DNA of 64,000 nt from Thermovirgaceae bacterium. GTDB lineage: Bacteria; Synergistota; Synergistia; Synergistales; Thermovirgaceae. The position numbers were made by a program. The stretch is taken from assembly GCA_040767805.1 (NCBI GenBank), contig JAXGNU010000005.1, positions 72,152 through 136,151 on the forward strand, read 5' to 3'. Below are positions 42,001 to 54,000 of this stretch, piece by piece. Each line of letters starts with the position of its first letter. Position 1 is the stretch's first letter.

Positions 42001-45000
42001 CCCACAGGGCTGTAATGGTTCTTAGAGGGGCCATAATGGCCCATGCACCCGACGCCCAAAAACTTCTGGGCGGCGAGGTGGAAATAGATGAATCCTATTT
42101 CGGCGGCAAACGTAAAGGCAAACGCGGCCGCGGCGCCTCCGGCAAGGTCCCGGTCTTCGGCATCCTGGAAAGGGACGGACTTGTTCACGTGGAGGCCGTC
42201 CCGAACGTAAGGGCCGAAACGCTCCTTGGCATGACCATCAAGAAGGTGCGCCGCGGAAGCATAGTCTACACGGACAAGTTCAAGGTCTACGATTCCCTTA
42301 TGTTCTGCGGATACAGGCACCTCAAGGTGGATCACGGCAAAAGGGTCTATGCCAGCGGCAAAGTCTACATCAACGGCCTGGAAGGCTTCTGGAGCTTTGC
42401 CAAGGAACGCCTTATCAAGCACCATGGTGTTTCAAGGACCTGGTTCCCTTATTACCTGAAAGAACTCGAGTTCCGGTACAATAACCGACGAAACGAAATA
42501 TTCAATGTTCTCTGTCAGTATATATGTGACTTTACACCTCTTGTGCCAGATAGGGAGTAATCACCTAATAAAGAGGTCCTCCCTCCCCCTCGCCCCTTTT
42601 TAGCTGATATCCCCCCTCACGTAGGATTATATTGACAGCAGTATGCCCATTTGTTACTCTATTTGAGCACTGTGAATTATCCTACAATAGGATAATAATA
42701 TTATCAAGGTAGGGAGAATGATTCATCGCTTTCGCTCAATCTTAACCAAGGGGGAGGGAAATCATGACTGCAAAAGACGTTGTGAAAAGGCTTTGGTCAA
42801 TGCTATACGAAATTCAGGGGTTTGTGTTGTTCATACTGATGCTTGGCGTAACGGTCCTCGTCTTTGTGCAGGTAATCATGCGGTATGTTCTTCATGCTCC
42901 TCTCATGGGCATTGAGGAACTGTTGCTTTTCCCGGCAATATGGCTCTACCTCCTGGGAGGAGCAAGCGCTTCTATGGAAAGGACCCATATAGAGTGCAAT
43001 GTGATCAATGTTTACGTGAAGGGTCCCCTCGCGCTCAAATTACTGGAGATCCTGAAATCGTCCATCTCCCTGGGCGTATGCTTGTGGCTCACCTATTGGG
43101 CCTTTGAATACTTGCAGTATTCGTTGAGAGTTTGGAAACTCAGTAACCTCCTTTACATCCCCCTCTTCTTTGGCGAAAGCGCCCTCTTCATCTGTCTTAC
43201 CCTTATGGCGGTTTACACCGCCGTGGAACTTGGAGACGACTTCCTTGGCCTCAGGGCTGCTTTAAAAAGCGAGGAGGCGGAATAGCCATGAGTCTCACGA
43301 CAGTAATACTTCTCGATGTTCTGATCCTTATCCTTCTTTTGATCTTGAGTGTTCCACTGCCCTTCTGTTTTGGAGGCGCCCTGCTTTTTTTGACCCTATT
43401 CGGGAACGTGTCCATGGCCAGCATGATGATGTGGGGATTCAACCAGATGATAGCCATGGTCCTCTTGGCCAGTCCCCTTTTCATTTTCGCCGGGCTACTC
43501 ATGGCTAACAGCGGGATTGCTGACACGCTTTTAGATTTCGTGGATTTGTTCGTAGGAAGGATCAAGGGAGGATTGGGTGTCGTCAGTACAGTAACCTGCG
43601 CCATAATCGGGGCCATTTCGGGCAGCGGCTTTACCGGCGTAGCGGCCACCGGGCCCATAATGGTTCCCCGGATGGTGGCCCAGGGTTACCCCAGGGGTTA
43701 CGCCACGGCCCTGGTTACTGTTTCCTCCATCCTGGGACTACTGATACCGCCGAGTGTGACCATGATCATCTTCGGATGGATTACGGAGACATCGATCCTG
43801 GCCTGTTTCCTTTCCACGGTGGGGCCAGGGCTCCTGATCACCCTATCTCTATCGATCGTCAACCTCGTATGGGTCCGCAAGATGCCCGGTATTATCCTGG
43901 AAGACCTCGAGACGCATAAACAAAGAAGAAAGGAAATGCCCGCCCGTTTCTCCAAGGCCATCCCGGCCCTTTCTATTCCCTTCGTGATCTTGGGGGGGAT
44001 TTACGGTGGAGTTTTTACTCCCACCGAAGCGGCCGCCGTGGCCGCGATCCTGGCCCTGCCGATAGGGTTCTGGGTGTACAAGGGGCTGAACCTCAAGAAT
44101 TTCATCCCCCTCGTGAGAGAATCGGCAACGTCCGTAGGGGCCATTATGACGATGATCCTTTTCACCCTGATCCTGAGCCAGACCTTCGTCATGCTCAGGG
44201 TTCCCCAAATGCTTGTACAAGTGGTGTTCCGTTTAACGGAGAACTACTGGCTGATCCTTTTCCTCATCAATATTTTTCTCTTCTTTGTAGGGATGATAGT
44301 CAATGACATTACGGGGATAATCCTGATCGCCCCTCTCCTTCTCCCCCTTGTCCGGGAGATGGGTATGAACCCGATCCAACTCGCGGCCATCATGGGAACC
44401 AACCTCGCCATGGGCGGTGTGACGCCTCCTTATGCCAGCATCCTCTATCTTGGGATGAGGGTAGGCAAATGTGAATTCACCGACATCTTCAAGCCGACCA
44501 TGATTTTTTTGATCGTTGCCTATATCCCCATCATCTTCCTAACGACCTATTGGGCTCCGCTCTCAATGTGGCTGCCGACGGTCCTCGGTTATGTGAAATG
44601 AGAAAAGGGGGGTTCCCCTGTTGTGACCCTCAGGTATCAAGGAGCGTGGTGAAATGAAACCGGTAGTGACTGTTCTAGGTGCGGGAAATGGCGGACAGGC
44701 CCTGGCAGGTCACTTGGCGCTCAAAGGCTACAGTGTGCGGCTTTTTGAACACCCCGATTTTGGAGATAAGGTCCCCGTCATAGAGGACATGGGCGGGATC
44801 GAATTGAGAGGTAAACTCGAAGGCTTCGGCGAACTCGAAAAAACCACGACAAACGCCGCAGAGGCCCTGGCGGGGGCTGATGTCGTCTACGTTGCCGCGC
44901 CGTCTTTTGCTCAGAAACCCATCATCGATAAAGCAGGTCCTTATATTTCCGAAGGGATGAAAGTGGTGTTCCTACCGGGGAACTTCGGCTCCCTGGAAGC

Positions 45001-51000: not shown

Positions 51001-54000
51001 TGTCTTCCCGGGCTTTATCGGAAACCCCACCAGGACGATCGCCGGGAGGGGTACTACGGCGTTCCTCGAAGGCGTGGCCGTGGTGACCTCGGGAAGATTG
51101 GTCAACTTCCAGGAGGGGCTGATCGACATGACCGGTCCCGGGGCCGAGTATTCGATCTTCTCCAGGTTGGTCAACGTGGTCCTCGTCCTTGAACCCGTTG
51201 AAGGGCTCGGGAAGTACGAACATGAGAGGGTCGTCAGGGAAGCCGGCGTTAAGGCGGCTGCTTTCATAGGGAAGGCCGCCGCAACGGCTGAGTATTTCGA
51301 GGAGACGGTCTATGCCAACGAAGCCATCCCCGAGATCCACTCCAAATACCCTGACCTGCCGAAAGTGGTCTATGTAAGGCAGGTCCTGGCTCAAGGACTG
51401 CTCCATGACAATTACCTTTACGGATTGAACGCAAGGGAAGGTGCTGTCCCTCTGTATATGCAGGCCACGGAACTCTTTGACGGGGCCATTGTCAGCGGGA
51501 ACTGCGCCGCCCCCTGTCATAAACACACCACCTATCATCACCAAAGGGACCCCATTTCCGAGGACCTTCTCGCTGAGCACGGGAAGTCCCTGGCTTTCCT
51601 GGGTATCATCGCCCAACCCGTGAGGACGGCTTTCTCTGAAAAAGAAAGGAATTCTTTCCAGGTCCTCAAAATCGCGAAAAGCCTGGGAGCCGACGGGGCC
51701 ATAATCGCCGAGGACGGAGGCGGCAATCCCGAGTGTGACCTGATGCTTACGGCCAGTATTCTCGAACAGGCCGGCATCAAGACCGTCATCGTGACCGACG
51801 AATACGCCGGTGGCGACGGGGCGTCTCCCGGGCTGGCGGATATTTCTCCATACGCCGATGCCGTTGTCACCAACGGTAACGGGAACGAACGCGTGGTATT
51901 GCCCCCGATGGAAAAAGTCATCGGACACTTGGAGACTATCGAAGTGATCACCGGTGGTCATTCGGGAAGCCTTTTGAAGGATGGATCGATAAACATGGAA
52001 ATAGCCGGCATCATGGGCTCCACGAACGAACTGGGGATGGAAAACCTCTCCACAAGGGCAATATGAGGGACGGTGCTGGGAAGATGAAAAAGTACAGGAT
52101 CGTTCACTATATCAACCAATTCTTTGCCGGCATCGGGGGTGAAGAAAAAGCGGGGATCGGTCCCTGGTTCGAGGACAAACCGGTGGGTTTCGGCAAGCAG
52201 ATCGAGGCGGCTTCCGGCGGCCGTCTTGAGGTCGTGCGGACGGTGATATGCGGGGACAACTATGCTGCGGAAAACCTTGAGGAATTTGAGAGGACCATTC
52301 TCCCCTGGATAAAAGAAGTTGACGCTGATCTTCTTTTCGCCGGCCCGGCCTTCGGTGCCGGGCGTTACGGGACCGCATGCGGGACCCTTTGTGACCGCGT
52401 TTCATCCCTATTGGGTCTGATTGCGATCTCTGCAATGCACGAGACAAATCCCGGGGTGGATGTAGCGAAAAGGACGACTTACGTTTTGAAGACCGGAGAT
52501 TCGGCGAGAAAAATTGGCAAGGTGGTTCAAGATATGATCCGGTTCGGCCTCCGTCTCCTCGATGGAGAAGAAATAGGAAGCCCGGAAGTGGAAGGATATC
52601 ACCCTCGTGGAGTCCGGATAAACTTCCGAAGAAAAGAGCGGGGATCGAAAAGGGCCGTATCCATGCTCCTCAAGAAAATTCACGGCGAGCCTTTTGAGAC
52701 GGAACTACCCATGCCTGTCTATGACCTCGTCCCGCCTGCGCCTCCCGTGGCGAACCTTGAGGAAGCCCTTATTGCCATCGGCACGGAGGGTGGCATCGTC
52801 CCCAGGGGTAACCCCGATCGGATCGAAGCTCACAATGCTTCCAAATGGTGTGCCTATCCCCTGGTGGGTTTGGACAACCTCAAGAAAGGCGATTACGAAG
52901 TCGCCCACGGCGGTTATGACTTGGTCCATGCCAACGAGGACCCCGACAGGGTTCTGCCCCTGGATGGCATGCGGCGCCTTGAAAAAGCGGGCAGGTTCCG
53001 AAAACTGCTTGAGAAATATTTCGTCACCGTGGGAAACGTAACGGCGGTGAAATCAGCTGAACGATACGGGCGCGAGATCGCGGCGATGCTCCACGATGAG
53101 GGAGTCGATGGTGTGGTGATGACCTCCACCTGAGGCACCGGCACGCGTTGCGGCGCAACGCTGGCAAGGGAGATCGAAAGATCCGGGATACCGACAGCCC
53201 TGATCACGGCCATACCCAGCATCGCCCTCACCGTCGGAGCCAACAGGATAGTCCAGGGGGTGGCGATACCTCACCCCGTCGGTTCCATCACGGAGGACAG
53301 CTACGAGGCGGAGATGGAGATAAGGATGGAGATATTGGAGAGAGCCCTGAACGCCATCTGCACGCCCATCACCGAGCAGACCGTTTTCCGCAAGGGAGAA
53401 CAGGTGGAGGTGGCTGGTGCTGGAAGGGAGTAAGAACCTCCCAAGGAGCAGGATCATCACTAACAACCCACTCGTGATCGAAAGGTTCAAAGAGAGCATT
53501 CCAGTAGAAGGGGGCCCCGCCGAGGTTTTCAAGGAGGCCCTGCAGCACCTTGAAAAGGGCGCTGTTCTCTCGGGGCATCCCCTTTCTGGAAGCATAAGGC
53601 TCACAGCGAACCCTTACCGTTCCATCGTCGTCGATGCTCCGGAAGGGGCCGCCCTGGACAGGAATGGAGTAGCCGCCCTCCTGGACGCGATCGATCGTGT
53701 CGAGAGAGCGTCGAGAGAAAGGATCGCGCCGCAGGAATGCCTGGAGGATTACGCGTTCATAGATTTGGACCTTTTGAAGGCCGGTATCAGCGACGACCCG
53801 GAGAAAAAGGTTTGAACCCTGAGGTTCTTCCCACGGGAGCGGTTCAGGCGCAGTAATTCCTCAGGGTGCCCACCCCTTCGATCTCCACTTCCACCACGTT
53901 GCCGGGCCTCAGGGGGCCTACGCCAGCCGGGGTGCCCGTGGCGATCACGTCGCCCGGGGAGAGCGTGGCGAAGCGGCTTATGAGGGCTATGATCCGGGTG

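What a model noticed while it worked through the whole genome (the two positions that open the first line are those of the whole stretch)
42764..53815. Conserved cluster joining a divergent GrdB/GrdE-type selenoprotein (UxxGxxC) to opine-dehydrogenase, OCD, SdaAB-like and [...]
A ten-gene cluster encodes a TRAP transporter, an opine-dehydrogenase-family enzyme, a fused serine-dehydratase-like protein and two OCD/mu-crystallin paralogs. It also encodes a GrdE-like proenzyme, a GrdB-like selenoprotein and GrdX. The Grd pair belongs to a clade distinct from the glycine, sarcosine and betaine reductases. The cluster is kept across several Synergistota families, and a paralogous cluster lies at C2:175861-190042. 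I infer a reductase for a secondary-amine (opine or imino) acid.
Evidence so far: The Grd pair: - Call 46: scores of 353-408 against cut-offs of 602-800 for GrdB, GrdF and GrdH. GrdX is present. - Calls 77 and 84: the motif is TST-U-GTGTRC against U-GTCTRC in the canonical copies. SGNC is kept. The C5 and C2 pairs are 62% identical to each other and 46-49% identical to the canonical pairs. Partner genes: - Call 74: PF02317 at 5e-48 (C5) and 4.5e-41 (C2). - Call 107: the second OCD lies at C5:120561-121562. Conservation: - Calls 78-80: of the 7 closest opine-dehydrogenase orthologs, 5 keep the full cluster and 2 have contigs that end early. G067, of another family, keeps the same genes in another order. 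11 of 12 distant paralogs lack Grd neighbours. - Call 81: 6 of 6 ortho [...]
(Added by a program. Inside this text positions count along the whole contig: contig position 72,152 is position 1 of the stretch shown here. "Call 12" and the like, gene names such as g00115 and contig names such as C1 are that model's own, and its searches are not shown. The text may have been shortened before it was handed on; [...] marks where a part breaks off. The agent that wrote the report below was given it as the finding of a first reader that could run no searches.)

Follow-up and report, generated by a model that had tools for sequence, protein, structure and literature searches.

The report
Unassigned glycine-reductase-type selenoenzyme with transporter
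An anaerobic sludge bacterium carries an operon that joins an uptake system and amino-acid-splitting enzymes to a selenium enzyme related to glycine reductase but with an altered active site, which probably lets it gain energy from an amine acid that nobody has yet identified.

Summary
The ten-gene cluster is real (DctQ, DctM, opine dehydrogenase, fused SdaB/SdaA-like, two OCD paralogs, DctP, GrdE-like, GrdB-like with in-frame TGA plus SECIS, GrdX). The GrdB copy reads TST-U-GTGTRC and scores below every curated cut-off for glycine, sarcosine, betaine, proline and fluoroacetate reductases.

- U-x-x-G-x-x-C is not peculiar to this cluster. At least 112 GrdB homologs across phyla carry it, mostly in Actinomycetota. 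There the GrdE partner has lost the pyruvoyl-forming Cys. The Synergistota clade (31 sequences, support 1.0) combines UxxGxxC with a kept SGNC site.
- The constant partners are GrdE, GrdX and a TRAP transporter (21 of 22 well-flanked loci). Opine dehydrogenase and OCD are present in only 15 of 22. One family keeps only regulator, TRAP and GrdEBX.

GrdA is always encoded elsewhere (28 of 28 other genomes).

Best reading: a new substrate-specific "protein B" that feeds the shared GrdA/GrdCD machinery. Its substrate is a TRAP-imported primary or secondary amine acid, probably an N-substituted glycine with an acidic substituent. The substrate remains inferred. No paper describing this was found.

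The parts
39537..40256 (-). GntR/FCD-family regulator, divergent from the operon
   Evidence: A homolog of this family (f5) has PF00392 plus PF07729. This protein gave weak NCBIfam GntR-type hits (NanR/LldR-like, below cut-offs). A member of the family lies within 10 kb in 18 of 22 well-flanked loci.
40347..42565 (.). 2.2-kb insertion with two transposase genes (40471-41439 DDE_Tnp_1; 41697-42560 IS1595) between regulator and dctQ
   Evidence: Pfam. Absent in the same-genus ortholog L149, which has 28 bp there. Contigs of X15, X16 and X9 join 40342 to 41616, so the first element is polymorphic.
42676..42696 (.). 21-bp palindrome upstream of dctQ, candidate operator
   Evidence: Read directly from the sequence. 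Function not tested.
42764..43285 (+). TRAP small membrane subunit DctQ
   Evidence: PF04290, 4.2e-18.
43288..44601 (+). TRAP large membrane subunit DctM
   Evidence: PF06808, 4.5e-82. A DctM lies within 10 kb in 21 of 22 well-flanked loci.
44654..45748 (+). NAD(P)-dependent opine dehydrogenase family enzyme (type 1)
   Evidence: PF02317, 5.4e-48. Best solved relative is 1bg6, N-(1-D-carboxyethyl)-L-norvaline dehydrogenase, 3.6e-61 over residues 6-357, with the His of 'VVHC' and the 'RYLTEDV' segment aligned to identical residues.
45767..47353 (+). fused beta+alpha iron-sulfur L-serine-dehydratase-like protein
   Evidence: PF03315 plus PF03313. TIGR00718 alpha 268 bits, above the 243 cut-off. 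TIGR00719 beta 135.6 bits, below the 161 cut-off.
47370..48383 (+). OCD/mu-crystallin paralog 1
   Evidence: PF02423, 9.7e-57. No NCBIfam equivalog cut-off reached. Best PDB matches are 6t3e, a pyrroline-2-carboxylate reductase (4.7e-47), and archaeal alanine dehydrogenase.
48419..49417 (+). OCD/mu-crystallin paralog 2 (start inferred at GTG after AGGAGG)
   Evidence: PF02423, 1.1e-57. Start inspected.
49524..50534 (+). TRAP solute-binding protein DctP (longest ORF starts at 49380; ATG 49524 precedes a signal-peptide-like stretch)
   Evidence: PF03480, 1.4e-35. Start inspected. PDB relatives are remote, best 1.3e-22.
50690..52066 (+). GrdE-like proenzyme; SGNC site with Cys codon at 51503-51505
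   Evidence: PF09338, 6.8e-163. GrdG 451.6 bits against a 780 cut-off, FarE 129 against 675, PrdA 70.8 against 700. SGNC site. Clade-specific residues after the Cys.
52084..53433 (+). GrdB-like selenoprotein; Sec codon TGA at 53131-53133; motif TST-U-GTGTRC (alternative start 52063)
   Evidence: PF07355, 3e-142. TIGR01918 510 bits against a 65 cut-off, but TIGR01917 494/602, GrdF 519/800, GrdH 449/775 and PrdB 96/300. Motif.
53134..53171 (+). SECIS element directly after the UGA
   Evidence: Rfam RF01990 SECIS_4, 34 bits (gathering 38), E 5e-6, full model length. The hairpin was also found by folding.
53417..53815 (+). GrdX
   Evidence: NF038093, 82 bits against a 40 cut-off. Each of the four protein-B paralogs of the genome has its own GrdX.

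Best explanation
GrdE*, GrdB* and GrdX of this operon form a substrate-specific 'protein B' of the glycine-reductase system.

Proposed steps:
1. A TRAP transporter imports an anionic amine acid.
2. The amine binds as an imine or iminium to the pyruvoyl group that self-cleavage at Asn-Cys (SGN|C) creates in GrdE*.
3. The selenocysteine of GrdB* attacks the alpha-carbon and cleaves the C-N bond.
4. The carboxymethyl group passes to selenoprotein A (GrdA). GrdC/GrdD, encoded with thioredoxin in the canonical grd operon on another contig, then yield acetyl phosphate.

The substrate is not glycine, sarcosine or betaine. It is most likely an N-substituted glycine whose substituent carries an extra acidic group, that is, an N-carboxyalkyl or 'opine-like' secondary amine. 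The released amine would then be an amino acid.

Where present, the opine dehydrogenase, the two OCD paralogs and the serine-dehydratase-like enzyme are accessory. They either oxidise part of the same or a related compound (a Stickland-like oxidative branch) or degrade the released amino acid to pyruvate and ammonia.

Shown:
- gene content
- Sec decoding signals
- the kept pyruvoyl site
- a distinct clade
- synteny
- GrdA encoded in trans

Inferred:
- every chemical step
- the nature of the substrate
For: Family and decoding:
- The pair belongs to the GrdE/GrdB family. It has an in-frame TGA followed at once by a SECIS_4 match.
- SelB is present in the genome.

Not a known specificity:
- It is below all specific cut-offs.
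- The genome's C3 copy passes TIGR01917 (657.7 against 602).
- 17 of 17 other UGTG GrdBs tested also fail them.

Distinct clade:
- 31 of 31 Synergistota TRAP-linked sequences are monophyletic, SH-like support 1.0.
- They are separate from canonical (13 sequences), GrdH-like (4) and Actinomycetota-type (54) sequences.

Amine substrate:
- SGNC is kept (consensus in at least 90% of 28 clade GrdE).
- GrdI partners of GrdH-like have SGSF.
- 0 of 26 non-Synergistota UGTG partners keep the Cys.

Works with the Grd machinery:
- GrdX is adjacent in 20 of 22 well-flanked loci, plus C2 by NCBIfam.
- GrdA with in-frame TGA is present in G000 and in 28 of 28 other carrier genomes. It is never in the cluster.
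- Component C genes and TrxA lie on C3.

The TRAP substrate is the reductase substrate:
- DctM lies within 10 kb in 21 of 22 loci.
- Five loci of one genus (L141-L145) have only regulator, TRAP and GrdEBX, four of them also a YjgF-like gene.

Extra negative charge on the substrate. Clade-specific replacements:
- GrdE: D247N, D277H and N279H, next to the pyruvoyl Cys272 (28 against 30 sequences).
- GrdB: F182R and S250H (31 against 13).

Opine link:
- A PF02317 gene lies within 10 kb in 15 of 22 loci.
- The enzyme is a close relative of CENDH.
Against: - No enzyme or growth data exist for any member.
- 7 of 22 well-flanked loci lack opine DH, and 7 lack OCD. The 'opine' flavour may therefore belong to the neighbours and not to the reductase.
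- The charge argument rests on sequence proximity only. No structure of GrdB or GrdE is solved.
- The GrdF model is not discriminating. The glycine-type C3 copy scores 676 on it, more than this protein's 519.
- No sequence that passes the sarcosine cut-off was in my tree, so separation from true sarcosine reductases rests on scores alone.
- The tree is FastTree, midpoint-rooted, and the sequences are kin.
- In this draft genome GrdC-beta is split into two ORFs and GrdD is partial.
- The role of the +3 Cys of UxxCxxC is not established, so its loss cannot be read mechanistically.
Confidence: 0.5

Rival explanations
1. It is only an isoenzyme for a known substrate (glycine or sarcosine). The neighbouring TRAP, opine DH, OCD and SdaAB genes deliver glycine from imported compounds. 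For example, a strombine-type opine would be split to glycine plus pyruvate, and the glycine then reduced.
For: - All family features are kept: pyruvoyl Cys, Sec, SECIS, GrdX.
- The best NCBIfam hits are GrdF/GrdG and GrdB.
- An opine DH of the CENDH type could release an amino acid.
- JGI auto-annotation calls close relatives 'glycine reductase' or 'betaine reductase'.
Against: - The genome already has a TIGR01917-passing GrdB and a second canonical-motif paralog (C13).
- The clade is old, monophyletic and about 50% identical to these.
- It has fixed changes next to both catalytic residues: UxxG, and CAAPCHKH against CVSACDKN.
- Loci without opine DH still keep their own TRAP transporter.
Confidence: 0.2
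2. It is a proline-reductase-like enzyme for a cyclic imino acid. Candidates are proline, pipecolate, or a product of 3-hydroxyproline dehydration. These would be made by the OCD paralogs (pyrroline-2-carboxylate reductase or cyclodeaminase) and by the Fe-S dehydratases (SdaAB-like here, AcnX in the C2 cluster).
For: - The OCD paralogs are closest to a pyrroline-2-carboxylate reductase structure, 6t3e.
- The C2 paralogous cluster holds an AcnX related to cis-3-hydroxy-L-proline dehydratase (PF04412 4.4e-103; NF051439 203 bits against 700).
- No PrdB is found in this 80.6%-complete genome.
- Dehydratase plus OCD pairs are known from hydroxyproline pathways (recalled).
Against: - PrdA/PrdB scores are very low (70.8/700 and 96/300).
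- PrdB of two Synergistota reads U-G-T-C-H-R-S. It keeps the +3 Cys that is lost here and lacks the +6 Cys that is kept here.
- GrdX adjacency and GrdA co-occurrence point to the Grd route.
- Five loci have no OCD or dehydratase at all.
Confidence: 0.12
3. The opine dehydrogenase works in the synthetic direction. An imported 2-oxo acid (for example glyoxylate) is condensed with a carrier amino acid to an N-carboxymethyl amino acid. GrdE*/GrdB* then cleaves this to acetyl phosphate and regenerates the carrier.
For: - Opine DHs are reversible and CENDH-type enzymes accept several 2-oxo acids (recalled).
- TRAP systems often carry 2-oxo acids (recalled).
- Opine DH is adjacent in 15 of 22 loci.
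Against: - Loci without opine DH keep an orthologous TRAP binding protein (48% identity in L032) and the reductase.
- One carrier genome (G158, 91% complete) has no PF02317 match at E<=1e-10.
Confidence: 0.1

Closest known systems
Glycine reductase protein B (GrdE/GrdB) with GrdA, GrdC/D, GrdX
   Same: - Same two protein families, and GrdE-before-GrdB order.
- Asn-Cys pyruvoyl site, Sec with SECIS_4, own GrdX.
- GrdA and component C are present in the genome.
   Different: - U-x-x-G-x-x-C instead of U-x-x-C-x-x-C.
- TIGR01917 494 bits against a 602 cut-off.
- 51-54% (GrdB) and 46-48% (GrdE) identity to the genome's canonical copies.
- 22 plus 8 clade-specific fixed positions.
- It sits in a TRAP operon without grdA, trx or grdCD.
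Sarcosine reductase GrdG/GrdF
   Same: A secondary-amine substrate bound through a pyruvoyl group is the mechanistic model used here. GrdF/GrdG are the best-scoring specific models.
   Different: Scores are 519/800 and 451.6/780. The canonical glycine-type copy scores higher on the same models (676.6 and 590.7). No validated GrdF was available for the tree.
Betaine reductase GrdI/GrdH
   Same: A substrate-specific protein B that shares GrdA/GrdCD. Synergistota hold a GrdH-like clade.
   Different: GrdH-like proteins read UGTCTRC and their GrdI partners have SGSF, with no Cys. This pair has UGTGTRC and SGNC. The GrdH score is 449/775.
Fluoroacetate reductase FarE/FarB of Synergistota (PMC10838667, passages read)
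   Same: A precedent that Synergistota evolved extra protein-B paralogs for new X-CH2-COOH substrates, each with its own transporter gene.
   Different: FarE scores 129/675 here. The paper describes FarE as not being a proprotein, and its operon as having an MFS antiporter and a radical-SAM gene. Neither is present here.
D-proline reductase PrdA/PrdB
   Same: Homologous pyruvoyl/Sec enzyme that cleaves a secondary amine. OCD enzymes nearby could make imino acids.
   Different: PrdB motif is U-G-T-C-H-R-S. Scores are far below cut-offs. Prd does not use GrdA or GrdX (established knowledge, recalled).
Actinomycetota-type compact grd operons with UxxGxxC (uncharacterised)
   Same: Same GrdB motif, T-U-G-T-G-T-R-C-G.
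   Different: - A separate clade (54 sequences, support 1.0).
- The GrdE partner lacks the Cys (SGQ[YF]G).
- The operon carries its own GrdC-like, thioredoxin and GrdA genes.
- No TRAP and no opine DH.
N-(1-D-carboxyethyl)-L-norvaline dehydrogenase (CENDH, PDB 1bg6) and opine catabolism
   Same: The opine DH aligns over its whole length at 3.6e-61, with conserved His, Arg and Asp positions (their catalytic role is recalled). The pairing of opine cleavage with an OCD enzyme recalls octopine catabolism of Agrobacterium (recalled).
   Different: Anaerobic host, TRAP uptake, and linkage to a Sec reductase. The substrate is unknown.

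Membership tests
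Selenoprotein B family, glycine/betaine/sarcosine/D-proline reductases (TIGR01918, PF07355) | HMM score above the curated cut-off | tested here: met
   TIGR01918 510 bits against 65.45. PF07355 474.4 against 22.
Selenoprotein B family | In-frame UGA decoded as Sec, with a SECIS directly downstream | tested here: met
   TGA at 53131-53133. SECIS_4 at 53134-53171, 34 bits, E 5e-6, just under the gathering score of 38. SelB is in the genome. Decoding itself is not testable here.
Selenoprotein B family | U-x-x-C-x-x-C active-site motif (PMC13188914, passage) | tested here: not met
   The motif is U-G-T-G-T-R-C: the +3 Cys is Gly and the +6 Cys is kept. All 31 clade members share this.
Glycine reductase GrdB (TIGR01917 equivalog) | Score of at least 602.2 bits | tested here: not met
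   494.1 bits. The genome's C3 copy reaches 657.7.
Sarcosine reductase GrdF/GrdG (NF040794, NF040793) | Scores of at least 800 and 780 bits | tested here: not met
   519.1 and 451.6 bits.
Betaine reductase GrdH/GrdI (NF040795) | Score of at least 775 bits; partner without the pyruvoyl Cys | tested here: not met
   448.7 bits. The partner keeps SGNC, whereas GrdI of Synergistota has SGSF.
D-proline reductase PrdA/PrdB (TIGR04480, TIGR04483) | Scores of at least 700 and 300 bits; motif as in PrdB | tested here: not met
   70.8 and 96.3 bits. The PrdB motif is U-G-T-C-H-R-S.
Fluoroacetate reductase FarE (NF053623) | Score of at least 675 bits | tested here: not met
   129.1 bits.
GrdE-type proenzyme (PF09338) | Family score and an Asn-Cys self-cleavage site | tested here: met
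   542.5 bits against 22.2. SGNC with the Cys codon at 51503-51505. Cleavage itself is not testable here.
Glycine reductase complex (system level) | GrdA, GrdC/GrdD and thioredoxin available in the genome | tested here: met
   GrdA with one TGA at C3:34565-35005. TrxA, GrdC-beta (in two ORFs) and GrdD (partial) lie on C3. GrdA is present in 28 of 28 other carriers.
Opine dehydrogenase (PF02317) | Family score; full-length similarity to a characterised member | tested here: met
   163.2 bits against 30. 1bg6 at 3.6e-61 over residues 6-357. Substrate not testable.
Ornithine cyclodeaminase / mu-crystallin (PF02423) | Family score; any NCBIfam equivalog cut-off | tested here: inconclusive
   The Pfam family is met (192.7 and 195.8 bits against 24). 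None of 13 NCBIfam models reaches its cut-off; the best, ala_DH_arch, scores 214.6 against 409.
Iron-sulfur L-serine dehydratase | Alpha and beta equivalog cut-offs | tested here: inconclusive
   Alpha 268.1, above 243.2. Beta 135.6, below 161.2. The single-chain model scores 187.4, below 345.1.
TRAP transporter DctPQM | All three components | tested here: met
   PF04290, PF06808 and PF03480.

The most novel reading that the evidence does not exclude
The clade is an 'opine reductase'. This would be the first protein B that reductively cleaves N-carboxyalkyl amino acids taken up by a TRAP system into acetyl phosphate plus a free amino acid. Candidate substrates are strombine- or alanopine-type opines and carboxymethyl adducts such as carboxymethyl-lysine. 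The opine dehydrogenase would give the matching oxidative branch, so that one compound is fermented in a Stickland-like way. More widely, U-x-x-G-x-x-C would mark several large, uncharacterised substrate classes of the glycine-reductase superfamily. These include compact grd operons in soil Actinomycetota.
Probability: 0.3. Interest if true: 0.75.

Novelty: new variant of a known kind. Interest (0 to 1): 0.6.

Why it matters
Glycine-reductase-type enzymes are among the few soluble systems that turn a reduction into ATP. Only glycine, sarcosine, betaine, proline and lately fluoroacetate are known substrates.

This work defines a conserved, TRAP-linked clade by three features:
- a kept pyruvoyl site;
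- an altered Sec motif;
- fixed charge-changing residues.

That gives a concrete, testable entry to a new electron acceptor of amino-acid fermenters in digesters, guts and the mouth.

The survey also shows that the textbook UxxCxxC motif does not hold for a large part of the family.

Tried and rejected
- A 'compensating C-terminal Cys' seen in the print-outs was my artefact. The references included the TGA stop, which was read as U. 0 of 31 and 0 of 54 sequences end in Cys.
- No solved structure exists for GrdB or GrdE, so the fixed residues could not be placed in space.
- TRAP binding-protein relatives in the PDB are too remote to name a ligand (best 1.3e-22, an isethionate binder).
- The promoter and terminator scan did not exceed shuffles (9 found against 6.8 expected; 11 against 17.2).
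- Source names of 120 close homologs are generic automatic labels.
- The link to carboxymethyl-lysine degradation by Cloacibacillus: I only saw a search listing. I did not test whether that genus carries the clade.
- RNA-library contigs of X15, X16 and X17 lie on all or nearly all of the operon (30, 30 and 28 of 30 bins). Contigs from RNA libraries may contain DNA, so this is not counted as proof of transcription.
- Supplements of the papers were not opened.

Full report
WHAT IS THERE

On the + strand of the window lie ten closely spaced genes:
- DctQ, 42764-43285
- DctM, 43288-44601
- an opine-dehydrogenase family enzyme, 44654-45748
- a fused SdaB/SdaA-like iron-sulfur dehydratase, 45767-47353
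- two OCD/mu-crystallin paralogs, 47370-48383 and about 48419-49417
- DctP, ORF from 49380 with a likely start at 49524, to 50534
- a GrdE-like proenzyme, 50690-52066
- a GrdB-like protein, 52084-53433, interrupted by TGA at 53131-53133
- GrdX, 53417-53815

A divergent GntR/FCD regulator lies at 39537-40256. A 2.2-kb insertion with two transposase genes (40347-42565) separates it from dctQ. The same-genus ortholog L149 lacks this insertion.

SEC DECODING AND FAMILY MEMBERSHIP

The TGA is followed at once by a full-length match to Rfam SECIS_4: 34 bits, gathering score 38, E 5e-6. The genome has SelB and a GrdA gene with its own in-frame TGA.

GrdB* passes the broad selenoprotein-B model (510 bits against 65). 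It fails the specific ones:

| Model | Score | Cut-off |
|---|---|---|
| GrdB (TIGR01917) | 494 | 602 |
| GrdF | 519 | 800 |
| GrdH | 449 | 775 |
| PrdB | 96 | 300 |

GrdE* fails GrdG (452/780), FarE (129/675) and PrdA (71/700).

The genome's C3 copy does pass the glycine-reductase equivalog (657.7). The C13 copy passes none. Each of the four paralogs has its own GrdX.

THE MOTIF

C5 and C2 read TST-U-GTGTRC. C3 and C13 read TST-U-GTCTRC. A 2026 review gives UxxCxxC as the GrdB motif (PMC13188914, passages).

The variant is not special to this cluster:
- 112 of the 119 encode a GrdB homolog at the match and 7 are chance hits.
- Most are Actinomycetota. There are also Methylomirabilales, a Nitrospinae genome, a deltaproteobacterium and Candidatus Formimonas.
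- 17 of 17 tested fail all specific cut-offs.

What distinguishes the Synergistota clade is the combination of motifs:

| Group | GrdE-type site | Sec motif |
|---|---|---|
| Synergistota TRAP-linked clade | SGNC kept (consensus in at least 90% of 28) | U-x-x-G-x-x-C |
| Partners of other UGTG proteins | Cys lost in 26 of 26 (SGQ[YF]G and similar) | U-x-x-G-x-x-C |
| GrdH-like and their GrdI partners | SGSF | UGTCTRC |
| PrdB of two Synergistota | not examined | U-G-T-C-H-R-S |

PrdB therefore keeps the +3 Cys that is lost here.

PHYLOGENY

I built a FastTree (LG+gamma, midpoint root) of 107 sequences. It held:
- the four G000 copies;
- the Synergistota and global UGTG proteins of full length;
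- four GrdH-like sequences;
- eleven database sequences.

Rows shorter than 420 residues and identical duplicates were left out.

Results:
- The 31 TRAP-linked Synergistota sequences form one clade, support 1.0. It has a C5-type subclade of 8 (0.993) and a second of 23 (0.927) that contains the C2 copy.
- Canonical sequences (13; 0.976), GrdH-like (4; 1.0) and the Actinomycetota type (54; 1.0) are separate.
- UGTG proteins also sit next to GrdH-like (L055), near the canonical group (L063, L071), and in a further branch (L035, L134).

The Gly state is therefore either old or has arisen repeatedly. No sequence passing the sarcosine cut-off was available for the tree.

SYNTENY

The exact motif occurs in 29 of 268 Synergistota genomes, at 34 places, in 7 of 13 families. 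The reversed control pattern gave 0 hits. This is a lower bound, because any change in the nine codons escapes the pattern.

I fetched up to 10 kb on each side of all places and compared gene content by all-against-all BLAST plus Pfam. In the 22 loci with at least 6 kb on both sides:

| Feature within 10 kb | Loci of 22 |
|---|---|
| GrdE | 22 |
| GrdX | 20 (C2 is added by NCBIfam) |
| DctM | 21 |
| GntR/FCD regulator | 18 |
| Opine DH | 15 |
| OCD | 15 |
| Fused SdaAB | 10 |
| SdaA-like without the beta part | 4 |

The window's gene set with both OCD paralogs (DctQ-DctM-OpDH-SdaAB-OCD-OCD-DctP, GrdE-GrdB-GrdX) is present in all 6 well-flanked members of the C5-type subclade: the window, L149, L156, L154, L130 and L153. 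In L130 and L153 the gene order or orientation differs. These cover two families and five genera. Two further members lie on short contigs.

A second module, opine DH type 2 plus OCD, follows GrdX in the other subclade. One genome (L128) has both modules around a single Grd pair.

Five loci of one genus (L141-L145) have only regulator, TRAP, GrdE, GrdB and GrdX. Four of them (L141, L142, L144, L145) also have a YjgF-family gene. L141 is the same place as the named Pyramidobacter piscolens MAG locus L032.

Opine DH genes are very common in the phylum: 120 of 268 genomes, with up to 8 copies. Most of them are not next to Grd.

PARTNERS IN TRANS

None of the clusters holds grdA, trx or grdCD. GrdA with an in-frame TGA is found in 28 of 28 other carrier genomes, always elsewhere.

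In G000 the canonical operon on C3 carries GrdX, TrxA, GrdE, GrdA, GrdB, GrdC-beta and GrdD. GrdC-beta appears as two ORFs and GrdD is partial. I cannot tell whether these breaks are assembly errors. No PrdB is present in this 80.6%-complete genome.

FIXED DIFFERENCES

Compared with 30 canonical GrdE of the order, 28 clade GrdE share 22 fixed differences. They are concentrated right after the pyruvoyl Cys272: C-A-A-P-C-H-K-H against C-V-S-A-C-D-K-N. They include D247N, D277H and N279H.

In GrdB there are 8 fixed differences: F182R, S235E, S250H, S251N, T273V, G319V, F328Y and C353G (31 against 13 sequences).

Two acidic residues are lost and several His or Arg are gained near both catalytic residues in sequence. 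This fits a substrate with an additional negative charge. It is an inference without a structure.

ACCESSORY ENZYMES

- The opine DH aligns end to end with N-(1-D-carboxyethyl)-L-norvaline dehydrogenase at 3.6e-61.
- The OCD paralogs match no curated equivalog. They are nearest to a pyrroline-2-carboxylate reductase and to archaeal alanine dehydrogenase.
- The dehydratase passes the alpha-subunit model of L-serine ammonia-lyase but not the beta or single-chain models.
- The C2 cluster adds an AcnX protein related to cis-3-hydroxy-L-proline dehydratase and an aldehyde:ferredoxin oxidoreductase.

HOW IT MOST LIKELY WORKS

The TRAP system imports an anionic amine acid. The amine forms an iminium with the pyruvoyl group of cleaved GrdE*. 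Sec350 of GrdB* attacks the alpha-carbon. The carboxymethyl group goes to GrdA and then through GrdCD to acetyl phosphate. Thioredoxin re-reduces GrdA.

The transporter and reductase persist without the other enzymes. The imported compound is therefore itself the reductase substrate.

An N-substituted glycine with an acidic substituent best fits four observations:
- the kept pyruvoyl site;
- the dependence on the carboxymethyl-specific downstream machinery;
- the charge changes;
- the frequent opine-DH neighbours.

The released amine would be an amino acid. The serine-dehydratase-like enzyme and the alanine-dehydrogenase-like OCD proteins could convert it to pyruvate. The opine DH could provide an oxidative branch.

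All chemical steps are inferred. My odds:
- 0.75 that this is a protein B of new specificity using the shared GrdA/GrdCD;
- 0.5 for the statement as a whole;
- 0.3 for an opine-type substrate specifically.

The rival readings are given in their own section: an isoenzyme for glycine or sarcosine, a Prd-like imino-acid reductase, and an opine DH that makes the substrate.

LITERATURE

Six searches found no paper that joins Grd proteins with opine dehydrogenase, OCD or TRAP genes, or that co-mentions opine dehydrogenase and Synergistota.

- PMC10838667 (passages read) reports eight grdB paralogs in Cloacibacillus porcorum and the farACEB fluoroacetate reductase. It lists SLC6, PutP, OpuD and MFS transporters, not TRAP.
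- PMC12366334 (passages) repeats this.
- The bioRxiv preprint 10.1101/2022.07.06.499078 (passages) only notes GrdX co-occurrence statistics.

Subscription journals and supplements were not searched.

HABITAT AND EXPRESSION

Near-identical DNA is held by runs labelled anaerobic digester, bioreactor sludge and sludge, from several studies beside the possible source. One 14-kb DNA contig of X9 spans 42543-54300 with 33 differences.

Contigs of three RNA libraries lie on 30, 30 and 28 of 30 bins of the stretch. This is compatible with transcription but does not prove it.

LIMITS

- Kin are not independent, so the synteny counts overstate the number of events.
- The motif scan is exact and capped.
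- The tree is approximate.
- Nothing here measures an activity.

Noticed in passing
L015, L016, L021, L023, L026 and about 30 further loci (e.g. L015:7496-12512): Soil and sediment Actinomycetota (Acidimicrobiales, Solirubrobacterales, Pseudonocardiaceae, Gaiellaceae) carry a compact operon. It reads GrdE-like without the pyruvoyl Cys (SGQ[YF]G), GrdB with U-G-T-G-T-R-C, a GrdC-like protein (DUF5940), thioredoxin and GrdA. The operon is seen in 24-33 of 35 loci examined. The substrate is unknown and the proteins fall below all curated cut-offs.
   Followed up: partly
window 40347-42565: A 2.2-kb insertion with two transposase genes (DDE_Tnp_1 and IS1595 type) lies between the GntR regulator and dctQ. 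The same-genus genome lacks it. Contigs of X15, X16 and X9 skip 40343-41615. The second element has 5-10 times the depth of its flanks, so it is a multi-copy, polymorphic IS.
   Followed up: partly
window 42676-42696: A 21-bp palindrome (two 9-base arms around a 3-base centre) lies about 70 bp upstream of dctQ, in the part of the intergenic region kept after the IS insertion. It is a candidate operator of the GntR/FCD regulator.
   Followed up: no
G000:C2:175861-192422 (L005): The paralogous cluster holds an XRE-cupin regulator, three OCD paralogs, a type-2 opine DH, an SdaA-like protein without the beta part, an AcnX protein (related to cis-3-hydroxy-L-proline dehydratase, below cut-off) and an aldehyde:ferredoxin oxidoreductase next to its TRAP genes.
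   Followed up: partly
G000:C13:11511-14140 (L007): A fourth protein-B pair with the canonical UGTCTRC and SGNC motifs and its own GrdX passes none of the specific models (GrdF 627.6/800, TIGR01917 560/602). Orthologs 52-63% identical to the canonical GrdE occur in many genomes of the order. Its substrate is also unassigned.
   Followed up: no
Synergistota genomes: Opine-dehydrogenase family genes (PF02317) are found in 120 of 268 genomes of the phylum, with up to 8 copies per genome. This is a striking expansion for amino-acid fermenters, and no paper on it was found.
   Followed up: partly
G000:C3:30636-33128 (L006:4636-7128): In this draft genome GrdC-beta is split into two overlapping ORFs (model positions 2-234 and 342-475). 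GrdD covers only positions 104-296 of 380. The cause may be frameshifts, assembly errors or decay; this is not resolved.
   Followed up: no
L134 (G045:C1:820384-840383) and L035 (Candidatus Formimonas warabiya): A further, deep-branching UGTG GrdB type has a GrdE partner without the Cys. In L134 it lies next to a sodium:solute symporter and a two-component system instead of TRAP genes.
   Followed up: no
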